DNA from: Desulfatiglandales bacterium
Lineage (GTDB): Bacteria > Desulfobacterota > DSM-4660 > Desulfatiglandales > Desulfatiglandaceae
Length of the DNA stretch: 64,000 nucleotides
Assembly: GCA_963662465.1 (NCBI GenBank)
Contig: OY759599.1
Location: 7,168,001-7,232,000 of the forward strand
Reading direction: 5' to 3'
In this document: piece by piece, positions 1 to 3,761 of the stretch
Position numbering within the stretch: the stretch's first letter is position 1
Layout: each line of letters begins with the position of its first letter
The notes under the pieces: generated by a model
Databases searched by the model: none
The model's input: the letters and a program-made list of their open reading frames with translations, nothing else
Told to the model about the DNA's origin: nothing
Position numbers and translations under genes: made by a program

Positions 1-816
1 GGTGCAGTTTCCACAGCCATGGGCGCTTCCACCAAGGCCGGTGGTGATTATTCCTTTGCGGCCGGCAAACACATGCAGCTAACCGCCGATGCTCACCACA
101 CCTTTGTCTGGGGTTATTCCGAATATGACGAACAAGAGCTTAGCGAGCCCAACGCATTCCTTATTTTTCCAGCAGGCACGGCGGGCCATGTGGGAATCGG
201 CACACCCAGTCCCGTGGAAAGGCTGCATATCCGCGAAAGGTCCGCTACCCTCGGGGCAGCAATACTATTAGACAGTACCGGAGGAACAGGCGGGCGGCAG
301 TATTATGTTGGGAGTACACTGTCATCGAACATCGGCGGAGCAGGACTGTTTCAAATCTATGATGACACGGCTAACCAGGCCAGGTTCAATATTAACTCAG
401 TAGGCAATGTCGGCATCGGCACGGCGAGTCCCGATTATACGTTAGAGGTTGCCGGCAATGCCGCCAAGAGTTCGGGAGGCACTACATGGATCAATAGTTC
501 TGATGAGCGGTTGAAAGATATTACGGGTGAATACAACCGGGGTTTGGATGCCATTATGAACCTGCGACCGGTTACGTTCTTTTATAAGGACAGCAACCCA
601 AGAGGGCTTCCAACCGAGGAAGAGAATATTGGTTTTATCGCCCAGGAAGTGAGAAAAGTATTTCCGGAGGCAGTAAGTGAGGGAGCCGATGGATACCTCG
701 ATTTCAACATGCACCCTGTTAATGTAGCGCTTGTAAACGCCGTAAAAGAACTCAAAGCCGAAAACGATGCGCTACGGCAGGAAATCAAGCAAATCAAAGC
801 GGCACTGGGACTATAG
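1..816 (+). CDS. Tail-fibre-like protein with C-terminal peptidase S74 intramolecular chaperone domain (5' truncated by window)
   Basis: Frame is open from base 1; GNVGIGT repeats, SDERLKDI S74 start, GFIAQEV...FPEAV motif, C-terminal coiled coil. Confidence 0.85.
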   Translation, partial: GAVSTAMGASTKAGGDYSFAAGKHMQLTADAHHTFVWGYSEYDEQELSEPNAFLIFPAGTAGHVGIGTPSPVERLHIRERSATLGAAILLDSTGGTGGRQYYVGSTLSSNIGGAGLFQIYDDTANQARFNINSVGNVGIGTASPDYTLEVAGNAAKSSGGTTWINSSDERLKDITGEYNRGLDAIMNLRPVTFFYKDSNPRGLPTEEENIGFIAQEVRKVFPEAVSEGADGYLDFNMHPVNVALVNAVKELKAENDALRQEIKQIKAALGL

Positions 817-1199
817 TGGCTGTTTGGGTGGCAAAAAACCTTGCTTGTGCTTTCCAGAAAGGTTGATTTCAAACTCCACAACCTCAGGGTTTTATGAAAG
901 CGAATTGTGTAAGATTGATCCGGCAATCTTACACGATTTTGGTACTCCCAGGGTGCGGATTAAAACAAGTTGTTTTTTTGGTATAGTCAATGTATCACAG
1001 GTTGAACGTTGAAAGCCTGAATACAATATATGGTGTCCGCCGCATTTTTTTCGAATCGGGACTTTCGTTTGCAATCTGACGGGACCTTTATATAATATTG
1101 AGGGCTAAATATTATTTCTATTCTTATCTATTCTTAAATCTCACATTTGATGTTCCATCAGCGTTCTATTGATGCATCAGGAGGCTCTATGGAAGGGCA

Positions 1200-1625
1200 T
1201 CAAAACCCATAGGGCGTTGAATGTCCTTTGGGTATTTTTCGTTGTCGTTGACGACCTAAGGAGCCCTCTTCTTGTGCAGGGGTGGCTTCTTTTCCGATGC
1301 TTTGCCACCCGTCTTGGGTAGCGGGTTCGGATTTCGGCGCTGGCTCTGCGGGTGGCTGTGTGGCGATGGTCATGGCCTGTTTCATAGCCCCATCCAATTC
1401 CGTCTGATCCTGACCTGACATGATAACCTCGCCGACCGCACCGGCGTCGCGGGCGGCCTGTGCCATTTCCTGCAGCATTTGTTTTGCTTTGGCATTTTGT
1501 TCAATGTCGTACCCTACTGCCACCACATTGATCAGGTTCCGTTTTACGGGTTGTTCGGCCAGGGCGTTGACGGCACAGATACCGGTTATCGCAATCGAAA
1601 ATAGCCATGCATGTATGGTTTTCAT
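1200..1625 (-). CDS. Small secreted protein resembling the C-terminal part of a VWA domain
   Basis: RBS AAGGAGG before ATG; signal peptide ending ALA; INVVAVGYD...LQEMA...GEV...ELDGAM resembles the last strands and helices of VWA. Confidence 0.7.
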   Translation of the reverse strand: MKTIHAWLFSIAITGICAVNALAEQPVKRNLINVVAVGYDIEQNAKAKQMLQEMAQAARDAGAVGEVIMSGQDQTELDGAMKQAMTIATQPPAEPAPKSEPATQDGWQSIGKEATPAQEEGSLGRQRQRKIPKGHSTPYGF

Positions 1626-1634
1626 GTTTCCTCC

Positions 1635-3452
1635 TTACCAGTTTACGGTCATGTCGTTCAGTCGGCGGACCTCTTCCGGTGGGTTGCCGCCCCCCGTTTC
1701 TTCACCGTCCGAAAGCACAATCAAAGTGAGTTTTTGGCCGCGGGCGTTTCGTCGCATATAAGCACCGGCCTCCCGTATGCCGGCCGCCAGCGGCGTGCCG
1801 CCATCGGCATTGATGCCGTCAACGGCAGCCTGAGCGCGCTCACGGCCAGCGGAATTCATCGGCGCAAAAGCTGATTTTACGGCATTGCCGCTGAACGCAA
1901 TCACCGCCAATTCGGTATCGGATCCCAGACCGGCGATTTGCCGATTGGCAGTCGCCTTGGCATTCGCAATCTTGGTCCCTTTCATACTGCCGGAGGCATC
2001 GATGAGTATCACAACCGAGTTCGCGATGGGCCCGCCGGAAACGTCAGTTGCGGATGCATTGTCGCCATCCGGGGCGGCATAGCGGAACCCCTTCGCTTCG
2101 AAAATATATTTATTGTAATAGAACTTCGTGCTTTGGAATTGAATCTGATCACCAACCTTTCGGATATTAAAGCGCCCCTTTCTGGCTTCCGGGTTTGAGC
2201 CGGGCCACAATATATGGCCAGCGCAGTCGCCCTGGATCTGGCCACCGTCTTCCCAGCCCCCCATGAGTTTTCCCGTCAATTGCATCCGCGCACCCGGTAA
2301 TCGTACATTGGATTGCATAACATACGGGGCATAAAGCTCGCCGGTCACCTGTGCGCCCTTGAATGTGAGCGACAAGGTCGCCTTCAGGTTGAAATCCACC
2401 TCAACGTATCCCTTGTATGAGACTTGAGATACTTGAGCGGCGCCGCCGGACTCGGCGGATACCTTTACCGCACGGGCATCGACTAAAATTATCCGTGTTT
2501 TATCAGCGCCCATCACCCAAGGCGGCGGTGCGCCGGACGAAGGCTGTCCCAGGGGTGTCGACACCGGGTCGCCACTACCCGGCACCGGGGTGCTGGCCCC
2601 AGCGGATGCCGGACTTGGTGAAATATGATAATCCAACCGATCCATCTGCCCGGACGCAGCTTGGTTTTCCACGGATGCCATTTGGATATTCCCGACATTC
2701 AAGTTGAGGCAGTTATCATGATTTAGATCAACCAAATATCTGTGAATCGGCCATAAATCCTCCATCACTGAATCTACCCGGCCAACATTGTCGGAAGGCT
2801 TTCGCACAAAAACCTCATAACGATCCACGGAGAGCATATTGTCAGCTGTGATCACAAACCGGCCGTCGCTCTTGGTGCGCCAGTTGCGGCGTTTCAAGCC
2901 GCTCCTTTCGCCGTGCAACTCGACCATCGCTCCCGCCACGCCTTCCCCGGTTCCGCGCATCACCGCGCGTCCGGTGATCACCGCTCGAGGGAGGTCAGGC
3001 AACGTCGGAGAGGCACCCGCTGAATCTTCATTGACGATGAGCGACCACGTACAGATGACGCAAAACCTTCCTGTTTTTCCATTTTCCATCATGGTCCCGC
3101 AGCGTCGGCCCATAACATATCCGACCCCGGGTCCTGCGGCCCGAATCGTGACCGATGTGGCGCCCTTTGTAGTCAACTCGCCGGGATAGCTGACATAAAA
3201 CTGTGCCTCCGGGTCCCAGCTCAAGATTTTGCCTTGCATCTGTTTTTGCGTACCCTGAAAATAAAATGGGCCTGTTGTCGAAAAGTAAAAGGTCTTGGTT
3301 TCATCGGGTTTGAGCGCAATCCGCCCCACAACCGTCCCCGCTTGACCCGCTGGCACGCGCTCCCCACGCGGCGTTTCTCCCTGAGCTTGGAGCGGCACCC
3401 AAACCAGCCACAGAAGACATATCCATAATAAAGCCCGCAACGTTGTTTTCAT
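1635..3452 (-). CDS. Secreted multidomain protein with C-terminal (incomplete) von Willebrand factor A domain
   Basis: Signal peptide; Pro-rich linker; MIDAS residues DASGS, GGTPL and LSDGEE; RBS AAGGAG. Confidence 0.85.
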   Translation of the reverse strand: MKTTLRALLWICLLWLVWVPLQAQGETPRGERVPAGQAGTVVGRIALKPDETKTFYFSTTGPFYFQGTQKQMQGKILSWDPEAQFYVSYPGELTTKGATSVTIRAAGPGVGYVMGRRCGTMMENGKTGRFCVICTWSLIVNEDSAGASPTLPDLPRAVITGRAVMRGTGEGVAGAMVELHGERSGLKRRNWRTKSDGRFVITADNMLSVDRYEVFVRKPSDNVGRVDSVMEDLWPIHRYLVDLNHDNCLNLNVGNIQMASVENQAASGQMDRLDYHISPSPASAGASTPVPGSGDPVSTPLGQPSSGAPPPWVMGADKTRIILVDARAVKVSAESGGAAQVSQVSYKGYVEVDFNLKATLSLTFKGAQVTGELYAPYVMQSNVRLPGARMQLTGKLMGGWEDGGQIQGDCAGHILWPGSNPEARKGRFNIRKVGDQIQFQSTKFYYNKYIFEAKGFRYAAPDGDNASATDVSGGPIANSVVILIDASGSMKGTKIANAKATANRQIAGLGSDTELAVIAFSGNAVKSAFAPMNSAGRERAQAAVDGINADGGTPLAAGIREAGAYMRRNARGQKLTLIVLSDGEETGGGNPPEEVRRLNDMTVNW

Positions 3453-3534: not shown

Positions 3535-3761
3535 GGAAAAACGGTCCACAAAATCTATTGTTAAGGCAACCGTAATGCAAATAAATAATTAGAATTGTTT
3601 GGCTTTATTTCAAATAGCTTTTTGCCATGTTGAAATTATCCTTTCATCTTTTCCAAAAAATCTTTGAATCAAGGATTCAACGGATCAGCAATTCCATGCA
3701 ATACTTTGTATTTTTTGGGCTGAAAATCGTTGTTTCATGAACAAAATACCTTTTTTTAAGA

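What the first reader, a model, noticed from the sequence alone, without database searches (positions are those of the whole stretch)
1200..3452. VWA domain apparently split between two separately secreted proteins
Seen: the 605-aa protein has all MIDAS residues (DASGS, GGT, SDGEE) but stops at ...GGNPPEEVRRLNDMTVNW. In this VWA type the fold normally continues with 'vhvVGFd...a..qL..iA...gG.y..a....eL..al'. Nine bases after the stop, a new gene with a perfect RBS and its own signal peptide begins its mature sequence with LINVVAVGYDIEQNAKAKQMLQEMAQAARDAGAVGEVIMSGQDQTELDGAM, which matches that missing part. A simple nonsense mutation would not create an RBS and a signal peptide at the break. 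Inference: a natural split fold that assembles by strand complementation outside the cytoplasm, acting as a docking or modular-assembly device.
Basis: partly seen in the sequence, partly recalled or inferred. Interest (0 to 1): 0.72.

Follow-up and report, generated by a model that had tools for sequence, protein, structure and literature searches.

The report
VWA fold split between two secreted proteins
Two adjacent genes each encode a protein with an export-signal-like start, the first carrying two thirds of a metal-binding VWA domain and the second a piece that is predicted to supply the missing third, so the two likely snap together outside the cytoplasm and join swappable tail modules to the large protein.

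Summary
On the minus strand, a 605-aa protein (1635-3452) has a VWA domain with all MIDAS residues. Its chain ends just after helix alpha5 (Pfam VWA positions 2-132 of 174). Nine bases later (GGAGGAAAC) a 141-aa protein with its own signal peptide starts (1200-1625).

This is not recent breakage. All 11 loci that could be judged have a VWA gene directly upstream of a small-family gene. These are the window, 4 Kiritimatiellia/Verrucomicrobiota MAG loci, 5 metagenome contigs and 1 further genome. An exhaustive profile search found 21 small stand-alone relatives and no fused form.

The small core folds as beta-alpha-beta-alpha with pLDDT 93-97. Its profile aligns to beta5-alpha6 of complete VWA domains (hhalign P 2.3e-4; 0 of 150 shuffles reach that score). 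In a co-fold its first strand pairs in register with beta4 of the large chain (ipSAE 0.85, best control 0.00).

Single-sequence Pfam, a PDB profile search and Foldseek on the fragment alone do not identify it as VWA. Physical assembly is predicted, not shown.

The part after the core varies across the family: a beta-rich module, a membrane helix plus FHA domain, LCCL, or, here, a lineage-specific tail ending IPKGHSTPYGF. This fits a modular docking device. I rate it a new variant of a known kind.

The parts
1635..3452 (-). Large-chain gene (605 aa plus stop): signal peptide, beta-rich N-terminal modules, disordered linker, beta-rich module, then a VWA domain that ends after alpha5.
3378..3452 (-). 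Predicted Sec signal peptide of the large chain (about residues 1-25, MKTTLRALLWICLLWLVWVPLQAQG).
   Evidence: Read by eye. Helix 2-23 in the model. No predictor was run.
1638..2021 (-). N-terminal two thirds of the VWA fold (residues 478-605: beta1 to alpha5 plus the tail MTVNW). It holds all MIDAS residues: D485, S487, S489, T553, D582.
   Evidence: PF00092 positions 2-132 of 174. (2x31_A residues 8-112 of 189). (pLDDT 71-92). (HMM positions 3-143 of 181). (Foldseek hits to VWA domains).
1626..1634 (-). Nine-base intergenic spacer GGAGGAAAC (ribosome-binding site) between the stop of the large gene and the start of the small gene. It suggests translational coupling.
   Evidence: Equally short or overlapping junctions in related loci.
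1200..1625 (-). Small-chain gene (141 aa plus stop).
1557..1625 (-). Predicted signal peptide of the small chain (residues 1-23, cleavage after ALA).
   Evidence: Read by eye. Helix 4-21 in the model.
1356..1535 (-). Conserved core (residues 31-90): strand 34-39, helix 45-60, strand 65-70, helix 74-89. It is predicted to be VWA beta5-alpha6-beta6-alpha7.
   Evidence: pLDDT 93-97. (profile-profile alignment with shuffle control). (co-fold contacts). (family conservation).
1203..1355 (-). Predicted disordered tail (residues 91-141) that ends in the tag ..DGWQSIG..IPKGHSTPYGF. Five other proteins of this genome share the tag; 4 of those 5 have a signal-peptide-like start.
   Evidence: pLDDT 50-61.
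3585..3613 (-). Candidate sigma-70-like promoter upstream of the large gene (TTGAAA-17-AATTAT, 9 of 12). This is a consensus match only.
907..934 (-). Terminator-like hairpin about 270 nt downstream of the small gene. This is a consensus match only.

Best explanation
This is a two-gene operon in which one VWA (von Willebrand factor A) fold is divided between two proteins that each carry a signal-peptide-like start, and the two chains are predicted to reassemble by fold complementation outside the cytoplasm.

Shown directly:
- The large chain carries beta1 to alpha5 and every MIDAS metal-binding residue, then stops.
- The small gene starts 9 nt later behind its own ribosome-binding site and begins with a signal-peptide-like start (read by eye; no predictor was run).
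- The pair and the break point are conserved in distant genomes.

Predicted:
- The small chain's 60-residue core is the missing beta5-alpha6-beta6-alpha7.
- Its first strand would insert next to beta4.
- Its last helix would pack against alpha1, completing the six-stranded sheet.

Inferred:
- Everything after the core varies between lineages. It can be a ~90-residue beta-rich module, a membrane helix plus cytoplasmic FHA domain, an LCCL domain, or, here, a lineage-specific tail tag. The split therefore likely works as a non-covalent coupler.
- That coupler would join the large chain's ligand-binding MIDAS face and N-terminal modules to an exchangeable anchoring or output module on the small chain.
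- In this genome the small chain would lend the large protein the IPKGHSTPYGF tail tag, which five other proteins of this genome also carry.
For: Anatomy: searches show the ORFs, the spacer and the Pfam VWA match to positions 2-132 of 174. The model ends after H591-597 and E602-604.

Conservation of the break: 15 of 15 large-family proteins match a complete-VWA HMM (built from 120 complete domains) only up to position 137-146 of 181. Fourteen of 15 end 0-14 residues after alpha5. The other, P0019, continues with unrelated sequence.

Conservation of the pair: a VWA gene lies directly upstream of a small-family gene in 11 of 11 evaluable loci. These are the window, L007-L010, L017 and L019-L022 and L033. 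L021 pairs with the FHA type of small chain. L033 has a large chain with a wholly different N-terminus.

No fused form: exhaustive HMMER of the core profile against 1.84 billion representatives gave 23 hits at E<=1e-3. Twenty-one are 139-279-aa proteins with the core at about residues 22-120. None is the C-terminus of a complete VWA.

Homology to the missing piece: 22 of 24 small proteins map, weakly, to HMM positions ~130-170. hhalign places small residues 31-57 on template positions 146-170 of 189 with P 2.3e-4 and score 27.6. The reversed profile scores 12.4. Column shuffles give mean 11.7, sd 2.4 and max 24.0, and 0 of 150 reach the real score.

Fold: the small chain alone is E34-39, H45-60, E65-70, H74-89 at pLDDT 93-97.

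Co-fold: ipSAE is 0.85 (three runs 0.82-0.86) and the best of 3 controls is 0.00. Partner pLDDT is at least 81 and the runs share at least 96 % of contacts. This mark was reached by 116 of 157 solved complexes and 2 of 215 mismatched pairs.
- Contacts 575-580 with 32-37 run in register (the beta4/beta5 position).
- Residues 592/595 (alpha5) touch 54/57 (alpha6).
- Residues 84-88 (alpha7) touch 576/578 and alpha1.
- Strand 65-70 touches nothing, as expected of the edge strand beta6.

Modularity: the C-terminal modules differ across the 24 family members. Pfam finds FHA in 3 of 24 and LCCL in 1 of 24.
Against: - No single-sequence method calls the small protein VWA. Pfam gives 0 of 24 at E<=0.01 and only 2 of 24 weak hits at E<=10, best 0.12.
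- The PDB profile search with A1 gave only chance-level hits at E>=0.38, none of them VWA.
- The first hhalign with shallow alignments gave Prob 0.24 % in another register.
- Even the deep hhalign reports only 44 % probability.
- Foldseek with the small model alone found nothing at E<=0.001. The top rows were small GTPases at E 0.19 and above.
- The ESM Atlas gave no usable hit.
- The co-fold can pass from memory of the VWA fold. It shows likeness to a complete VWA, not that the chains bind in a cell. My own alignments were used, so the calibration counts hold only roughly.
- The conserved tail MTVNW of the large chain overlaps the start of beta5 in the HMM alignment. Its place in the complex is unresolved.
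- Signal peptides were judged by eye only.
- The function of the tail tag is unknown.
Confidence: 0.72

Rival explanations
1. The small protein is a dedicated but non-homologous partner (a cap or chaperone) that covers the exposed face of a VWA domain that is truncated by nature. It would not be the missing part of the fold.
For: No single-sequence or fragment-only method identifies it as VWA. The hhalign probability is only 44 %.
Against: The element order beta-alpha-beta-alpha equals beta5-alpha6-beta6-alpha7. The profile alignment lands exactly on the missing segment, and 0 of 150 shuffles reach its score. The predicted contacts reproduce the canonical sheet order and the alpha7/alpha1 packing.
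Confidence: 0.12
2. The two proteins are co-transcribed but act separately. The truncated VWA would be functional alone, and the small protein would be an unrelated secreted factor.
For: Binding was not measured. The AF2 model of the large chain alone is confident in its VWA part (pLDDT 71-92).
Against: The genes are adjacent in 11 of 11 evaluable loci, although the other domains of both proteins vary. The co-fold scores 0.85 against 0.00 for the controls. A VWA sheet that ends at beta4 would expose its hydrophobic core (inference from the known fold).
Confidence: 0.1
3. The split is a recent gene breakage (nonsense or frameshift mutation) or an assembly error in a once-complete VWA gene.
For: None beyond the truncated Pfam match. 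One relative, L020, does show a frameshift-like end in its large gene.
Against: The same break point occurs in 14 of 15 family members from independent assemblies. The small gene has its own ribosome-binding site and signal peptide. The pair is conserved down to about 25-30 % identity of the core. No complete fused relative was found.
Confidence: 0.02

Closest known systems
Single-chain bacterial secreted VWA-domain proteins (Pfam PF00092/PF13519), e.g. the complete VWA proteins of the P0028 group that share the LSDGEETCGGNP motif
   Same: They have the same beta1-alpha5 architecture, the same MIDAS motif (DxSxS...T...D) and the same motif after beta4. The large chain passes the Pfam gathering scores.
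   Different: There the fold continues in the same chain (..KAKGIVIDVIGLNV..GGGSYFSV..). Here it stops after alpha5, and the rest sits on a separate protein with a signal-peptide-like start of its own. My searches found no split bacterial VWA in print: one search gave 0 papers, and one search gave 2 unrelated papers (seen as search listings and abstract starts only).
Donor-strand complementation in chaperone-usher pili (recalled knowledge, not tested here)
   Same: It works alike. An incomplete fold exported through Sec is completed in the periplasm by a segment from another polypeptide.
   Different: There the fold is Ig-like and a single strand is donated. Here it is a Rossmann-like alpha/beta fold, and a 60-residue beta-alpha-beta-alpha unit, including an interior strand, would be donated. 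There is no chaperone or usher in the operon. It is not a member of that system.
Integrin alpha-I (VWA) domains with alpha7-helix allostery (recalled knowledge)
   Same: They share the MIDAS-bearing VWA fold. In integrins, ligand binding at MIDAS shifts the C-terminal alpha7 helix and passes the signal to the next domain.
   Different: Here alpha7 would lie on the small chain, directly before the variable module (a membrane helix plus FHA domain in 3 of 24 relatives). Whether any alpha7 movement occurs was not tested.
Prokaryotic vWA-FHA signalling pairs such as ArnA-ArnB (PMC6509490, search listing and abstract start only)
   Same: VWA and FHA domains are functionally linked. Three of 24 small-chain relatives carry an FHA domain.
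   Different: Those use complete VWA domains. I recall the known pairs as cytoplasmic, which I did not check. Here the FHA domain would be cytoplasmic and joined through a membrane helix to an extracytoplasmic third of a VWA fold. The window's own small chain has no FHA.

Membership tests
VWA domain (Pfam PF00092 / PF13519), large chain | Profile match above the curated gathering score | tested here: met
   PF13519 scores 48.7 bits (cut-off 27) and PF00092 scores 46.5 bits (cut-off 23.8).
VWA domain, large chain | Complete MIDAS motif DxSxS ... T ... D | tested here: met
   D485, S487, S489, T553 and D582 are invariant in the 15 sequences of A2.
VWA domain, large chain | Whole fold (beta1 to alpha7, six-stranded sheet) in one polypeptide | tested here: not met
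   The match covers Pfam positions 2-132 of 174, HMM positions 3-143 of 181 and residues 8-112 of 189 in 2x31_A. The model ends after alpha5.
VWA C-terminal segment (beta5-alpha6-beta6-alpha7), small chain | Significant single-sequence match to a VWA profile | tested here: not met
   0 of 24 at E<=0.01. 2 of 24 at E<=10, best 0.12. The PDB profile search found no VWA.
VWA C-terminal segment, small chain | Profile-profile alignment to the segment that the large chain lacks | tested here: met
   hhalign P 2.3e-4, Prob 44 %, template positions 146-170 of 189. 0 of 150 shuffles reach the score. The first, shallow attempt failed.
VWA C-terminal segment, small chain | Secondary-structure order beta-alpha-beta-alpha | tested here: met
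   E34-39, H45-60, E65-70, H74-89 at pLDDT 93-97.
VWA C-terminal segment, small chain | First strand sits parallel beside beta4, and the last helix packs against alpha1 | tested here: met
   Prediction only. Contacts 575-580 with 32-37 run in register, and 84-88 touch 576/578 and alpha1. ipSAE is 0.85 against controls of 0.00.
Split-fold complex (two chains form one domain) | Physical association of the two mature chains | not testable with these tools
   Needs co-purification or a solved structure.
Sec-exported proteins | Cleavable N-terminal signal peptide on both chains | tested here: inconclusive
   Typical n/h/c regions were read by eye, and both models have N-terminal helices. No signal-peptide predictor was available.
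Known C-terminal sorting tags (NCBIfam -CTERM models) | Match of the tail to a curated sorting-signal model | tested here: not met
   The NCBIfam scan of the small protein gave no sorting-signal model. The tail has no hydrophobic segment (sequence).

The most novel reading that the evidence does not exclude
A natural split-domain coupler. The VWA fold is cut so that the ligand-sensing MIDAS face lies on one secreted chain and the allosteric alpha7 helix lies on another chain that carries swappable output modules. Ligand binding would then be passed, integrin-like, through alpha7 to a tail tag, a beta-rich module or, across the membrane, to a cytoplasmic FHA domain. That would be a new way to build modular extracytoplasmic sensors and adhesins, and a ready-made heterodimerisation pair that works outside the cytoplasm.
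Probability: 0.2. Interest if true: 0.85.

Novelty: new variant of a known kind. Interest (0 to 1): 0.68.

Why it matters
Single domains split inside their hydrophobic core between two separately exported proteins are very rare. I found none described for the VWA fold.

If the chains do assemble, four things follow:
- The pair shows that an alpha/beta fold can be completed after Sec export from two unfolded chains.
- It gives a natural, genetically encoded heterodimerisation pair that works in the periplasm or on the cell surface.
- It offers a test of whether alpha7 allostery, known from integrins, is used in bacteria. The relatives with a membrane helix and an FHA domain make that directly testable.
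- It corrects annotation. The small proteins carry no family name today, and the large ones are labelled as ordinary VWA proteins.

Tried and rejected
- Pfam and NCBIfam on the small protein gave only chance-level hits.
- The PDB profile search with A1 gave only chance hits, such as cytochrome b562 fusions at E 0.38 and above.
- The first hhalign used a 7-sequence core against 7 complete VWA domains. It gave Prob 0.24 % in a different register. I set it aside because of low diversity (Neff 1.4).
- The ESM Atlas gave no usable hit.
- Foldseek with the small model alone found nothing at E<=0.001. A 57-residue beta-alpha-beta-alpha unit is too generic for this test.
- Circular permutation (the missing elements sitting upstream of beta1) is rejected. 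Residues 342-458 are all-beta in the model.
- Recent breakage is rejected because the pair is conserved.
- A second pair or a complete paralog in this genome was not found. The only other match is a weak VWA hit at E 5.6e-4.
- The weak core hit in G317 (E 2.4e-5) lies inside a 287-aa frame with no VWA neighbour. I treat it as chance.
- Composition gives no sign of foreign origin. The operon has GC 0.50-0.57 and its flanks 0.42-0.56.
- Earlier scan notes held nothing on this locus or sequence.
- Contexts of the more distant small-family members (P0039-P0056, except the L033 type) could not be fetched.
Full report
**Observation.** Searches confirm two tandem minus-strand genes.
- The first (1635..3452, 605 aa) ends ...GGNPPEEVRRLNDMTVNW, then TAA.
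- Nine bases follow (GGAGGAAAC on the coding strand).
- An ATG at 1625 then opens a 141-aa ORF (1200..1625) with a typical signal-peptide start (MKTIHAWLFSIAITGICAVNALA|EQ).

Pfam places a VWA domain at residues 480-603 of the large protein but covers only profile positions 2-132 of 174. The best solved relative by sequence, the BchD VWA domain 2x31_A, is matched over residues 8-112 of 189. The MIDAS residues D485, S487, S489, T553 and D582 are all present and invariant in the family alignment.

An AF2 model (mean pLDDT 63.7, but 71-92 across residues 478-605) shows beta1, alpha1, beta2, two helices, beta4 (574-580), alpha5 (591-597) and a 3-residue strand. Then the chain ends. Foldseek with this model finds VWA domains such as ITIH4, CMG2/ANTXR2, CLCA1 and integrin I domains. 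The alignments cover about 130-145 columns of domains 170-190 residues long.

**Not a broken gene.** The large-protein family (15 sequences) includes members with wholly different N-terminal parts (P0021-P0025).
- Fourteen of the 15 stop 0-14 residues after alpha5.
- The fifteenth (P0019) continues, but not with VWA sequence.
- Against an HMM built from 120 complete VWA domains of the closest complete type (the P0028 group), 15 of 15 match no further than position 146 of 181.

The gene pair is conserved.
- Four of 4 loci from genome collections have a 641-644-aa VWA protein ending ..LNDVTVN, followed within a few bases by a small signal-peptide protein with the same core. These are Kiritimatiellia and 'uncultured Verrucomicrobiota' MAGs. 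In L009 the large gene is cut at the contig start.
- Five of 5 metagenome loci that include upstream DNA show the same arrangement. The sixth locus, L018, is cut at the contig end. In L020 the large gene departs from the family frame near its end.
- A more distant pair in genome G797 joins a 370-aa large chain with a different N-terminus (ending ..ELTDGMETCNGDPVKAAGNINN) to a 203-aa small chain.
- In total, 11 of 11 evaluable loci are paired.

The family is rare. In samples of about 400 genomes, the core was found in 4 of 401 genomes of the phylum of G401. In the window's own phylum it was found only in G000 itself, plus one match that I treat as chance.

**The small-protein family.** An exhaustive HMMER search with the core profile over 1.84 billion representatives gave 23 hits at E<=1e-3.
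- Twenty-one are proteins of 139-279 aa with the core at about residues 22-120, that is, after a signal-peptide-like start (with a linker of some 30-40 residues in a few).
- Two (4803 aa and 578 aa) match only short repeated stretches. I left these out and did not study them.
- No hit is the C-terminus of a complete VWA domain.

I aligned 24 members. I left out P0005-P0008, which are close to P0004, and also P0053 and P0055. The core motif is IN.v.VGYDIE.N..A..ML..MA.AA...GA.G.Vi.AG.D..EL..AM..A.

What follows the core varies. The counts below are by eye, with Pfam results.
- A ~90-residue module (AWIGFY...FRLF) in 12 members.
- A hydrophobic helix plus an FHA domain in 3 members (Pfam FHA, best E 4.4e-20).
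- An LCCL domain in 1 member.
- A repeat region in 1 member.
- Short tails in 4 members.
- The window type, with a tail tag, in 3 members.

**Is the core the missing third of the fold?**

Evidence against or uninformative:
- Pfam and NCBIfam on the single protein find nothing relevant.
- A PDB profile search found no VWA.
- 0 of 24 family members hit a VWA model at E<=0.01, and 2 of 24 at E<=10, best 0.12.
- A shallow profile-profile comparison failed.
- The ESM Atlas gave nothing.
- Foldseek with the fragment alone gave nothing.

Evidence for:
- With the complete-VWA HMM, 22 of 24 small proteins map weakly (8 to -2 bits) to positions ~130-170. That is the part the large chains lack. They are relatives, so this is not 22 independent results.
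- With the 24-sequence profile against the 120-sequence complete-VWA alignment, hhalign aligns small residues 31-57 (LINVVAVGYDIEQNAKAKQMLQEMAQA) to template positions 146-170 of 189 (GIVIDVIGLNVTG--ATKTQLNSISVS). P is 2.3e-4 and probability 44 %. The global mode covers positions 139-189.
- The reversed profile scores 12.4. Of 150 column shuffles (mean 11.7, sd 2.4, max 24.0), none reaches the real score of 27.6.
- AF2 folds the small chain alone as strand 34-39, helix 45-60, strand 65-70, helix 74-89 at pLDDT 93-97. The tail 91-141 has low confidence.

**Co-fold.** I co-folded large residues 465-605 with small residues 24-95, each with its own alignment.
- ipSAE was 0.85 (three runs, 0.82-0.86). 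The best of three controls was 0.00.
- Partner pLDDT was at least 81, and the runs shared at least 96 % of contacts.
- The pass mark was reached by 116 of 157 solved complexes and 2 of 215 mismatched pairs. These counts hold only roughly here because my own alignments were used.

The lowest-error contacts reproduce the canonical VWA topology. That topology, sheet order beta3-2-1-4-5-6 with alpha7 beside alpha1, is recalled knowledge.
- Large residues 575-580 (beta4) pair in register with small residues 32-37.
- Alpha5 (592, 595) touches the small helix (54, 57).
- Small residues 84-88 touch 576/578 and alpha1 (493-505).
- The small strand 65-70 touches nothing in the large chain, as expected for the edge strand beta6.

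The tool warns that halves of a known fold can pass from memory. The result therefore shows that the two chains together look like one VWA domain. It does not show that they bind in a cell.

**How it likely works.**
- Shown: the anatomy, the conservation of the break and of the pair, the absence of fused relatives, and the variable C-terminal modules.
- Predicted: the core is beta5-alpha6-beta6-alpha7 and docks beside beta4.
- Inferred: both chains are exported unfolded through Sec, assemble outside the cytoplasm into one MIDAS-competent VWA domain, and the split serves to couple the large chain to whatever module the small chain carries.

In three relatives that module is a membrane helix followed by an FHA domain. 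That puts a VWA third outside the cell and a phosphothreonine-binding domain inside it.

The last helix of the fold, alpha7, is the allosteric element in integrin I domains (recalled). Here it would sit on the small chain just before the variable module. Signal transmission through alpha7 is therefore an attractive but untested extension.

**The window's own module.** The tail of the small chain (..DGWQSIG..IPKGHSTPYGF) is shared with the C-termini of five other proteins in this genome; 4 of those 5 have a signal-peptide-like start. One of the five has a CarboxypepD_reg-like domain, one has TPR repeats, one has a FecR domain and two have no Pfam match.

In a sample of the order, the tail occurs in 2 of 60 other genomes, one of the same genus and one of the same family, on other proteins. 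It matches no curated sorting-signal model. Its role is unknown. It shows that a lineage-specific module has been placed behind the conserved core.

**Context.** In the window the pair stands alone.
- Upstream lies an Fe-S/flavin oxidoreductase gene.
- Downstream lies a convergent ORF with a Peptidase_S74 domain.
- A promoter-like site and a terminator-like hairpin flank the pair.
- GC content is like that of the surroundings.

In the PVC loci the pair sits among small lipoprotein genes. Some resemble LpoB below the cut-off, and one is an LA_2272-repeat protein.

**Comparison and novelty.** The large chain is a VWA protein by profile score and MIDAS motif, but it fails the test of having the whole fold in one chain. 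The small chain is not recognised by any curated model.

The system works like donor-strand complementation in pili. However, it uses a different fold and a much larger donated unit, so it is not a member of that system.

My literature searches found no description of a split bacterial VWA domain.
- One search returned 0 papers.
- One search returned 2 unrelated papers, seen as search listings and abstract starts only.
- One search listed known vWA-FHA pairings with complete domains, seen as search listings and abstract starts only.

I rate the finding a new variant of a known kind.

Noticed in passing
window 1203-1355 (-); G000:C1 1598163-1600073 (-), 2864569-2867505 (-), 3845418-3846407 (+), 6228854-6230062 (-), 6237018-6239033 (-): Six proteins of this genome share a C-terminal tail (..GW.[SP]IG.. 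about 20-30 residues ..IPKGHST.YGF-stop). Five of the six have a signal-peptide-like start (the FecR-domain one shows none). The tail has no hydrophobic segment and matches no curated sorting-signal model, so it is a candidate lineage-specific sorting or docking tag. It was also found in 2 of 60 other genomes of the order.
   Followed up: partly
L014 (G000:C1:6225000-6243000): Two tag-bearing proteins lie 8 kb apart. Between them are a PEGA/FlgO/CsgG-like protein and a BNR/sortilin-like protein. LpoB-like lipoprotein genes also flank the split-VWA pairs in the PVC loci. This may be a shared envelope context, but it was not tested.
   Followed up: partly
L027 (G403:C275:1310-1609, -): The ~90-residue C-terminal module of the PVC-type small chains (AWIGFY...FRLF) also occurs inside an 1165-aa open frame elsewhere in one MAG. 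It therefore behaves as a mobile domain.
   Followed up: no
L020 411-2333 (+): In this metagenome contig the large-chain gene leaves the family reading frame near beta4 (..GGKRLTLMTARRPAAAIRLRKCGA). This looks like a frameshift or a sequencing error. The small gene after it is intact.
   Followed up: no
P0019 (656 aa): This large-family relative has a VWA part that also stops after alpha5, but the chain then runs on for about 370 residues of other, beta-rich sequence. The break point is therefore not always a chain end. Its genomic context could not be fetched.
   Followed up: no
window 1-816 (+): An ORF open at its 5' end carries a Peptidase_S74 (endosialidase chaperone) domain (E 8e-15) and a coiled-coil end. 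This is typical of tail-fibre-like or surface fibre proteins. It runs convergent to the split-VWA operon.
   Followed up: no
window 1638-1652 (-), large-chain residues 601-605: The conserved C-terminal tail D[MLV][TS]V.W of the large chain aligns with the first residues of beta5 in the complete-VWA HMM. It thus overlaps what the small chain's LINV.. would supply. Its place in the complex is unresolved, and it may be a remnant of the fission event.
   Followed up: partly
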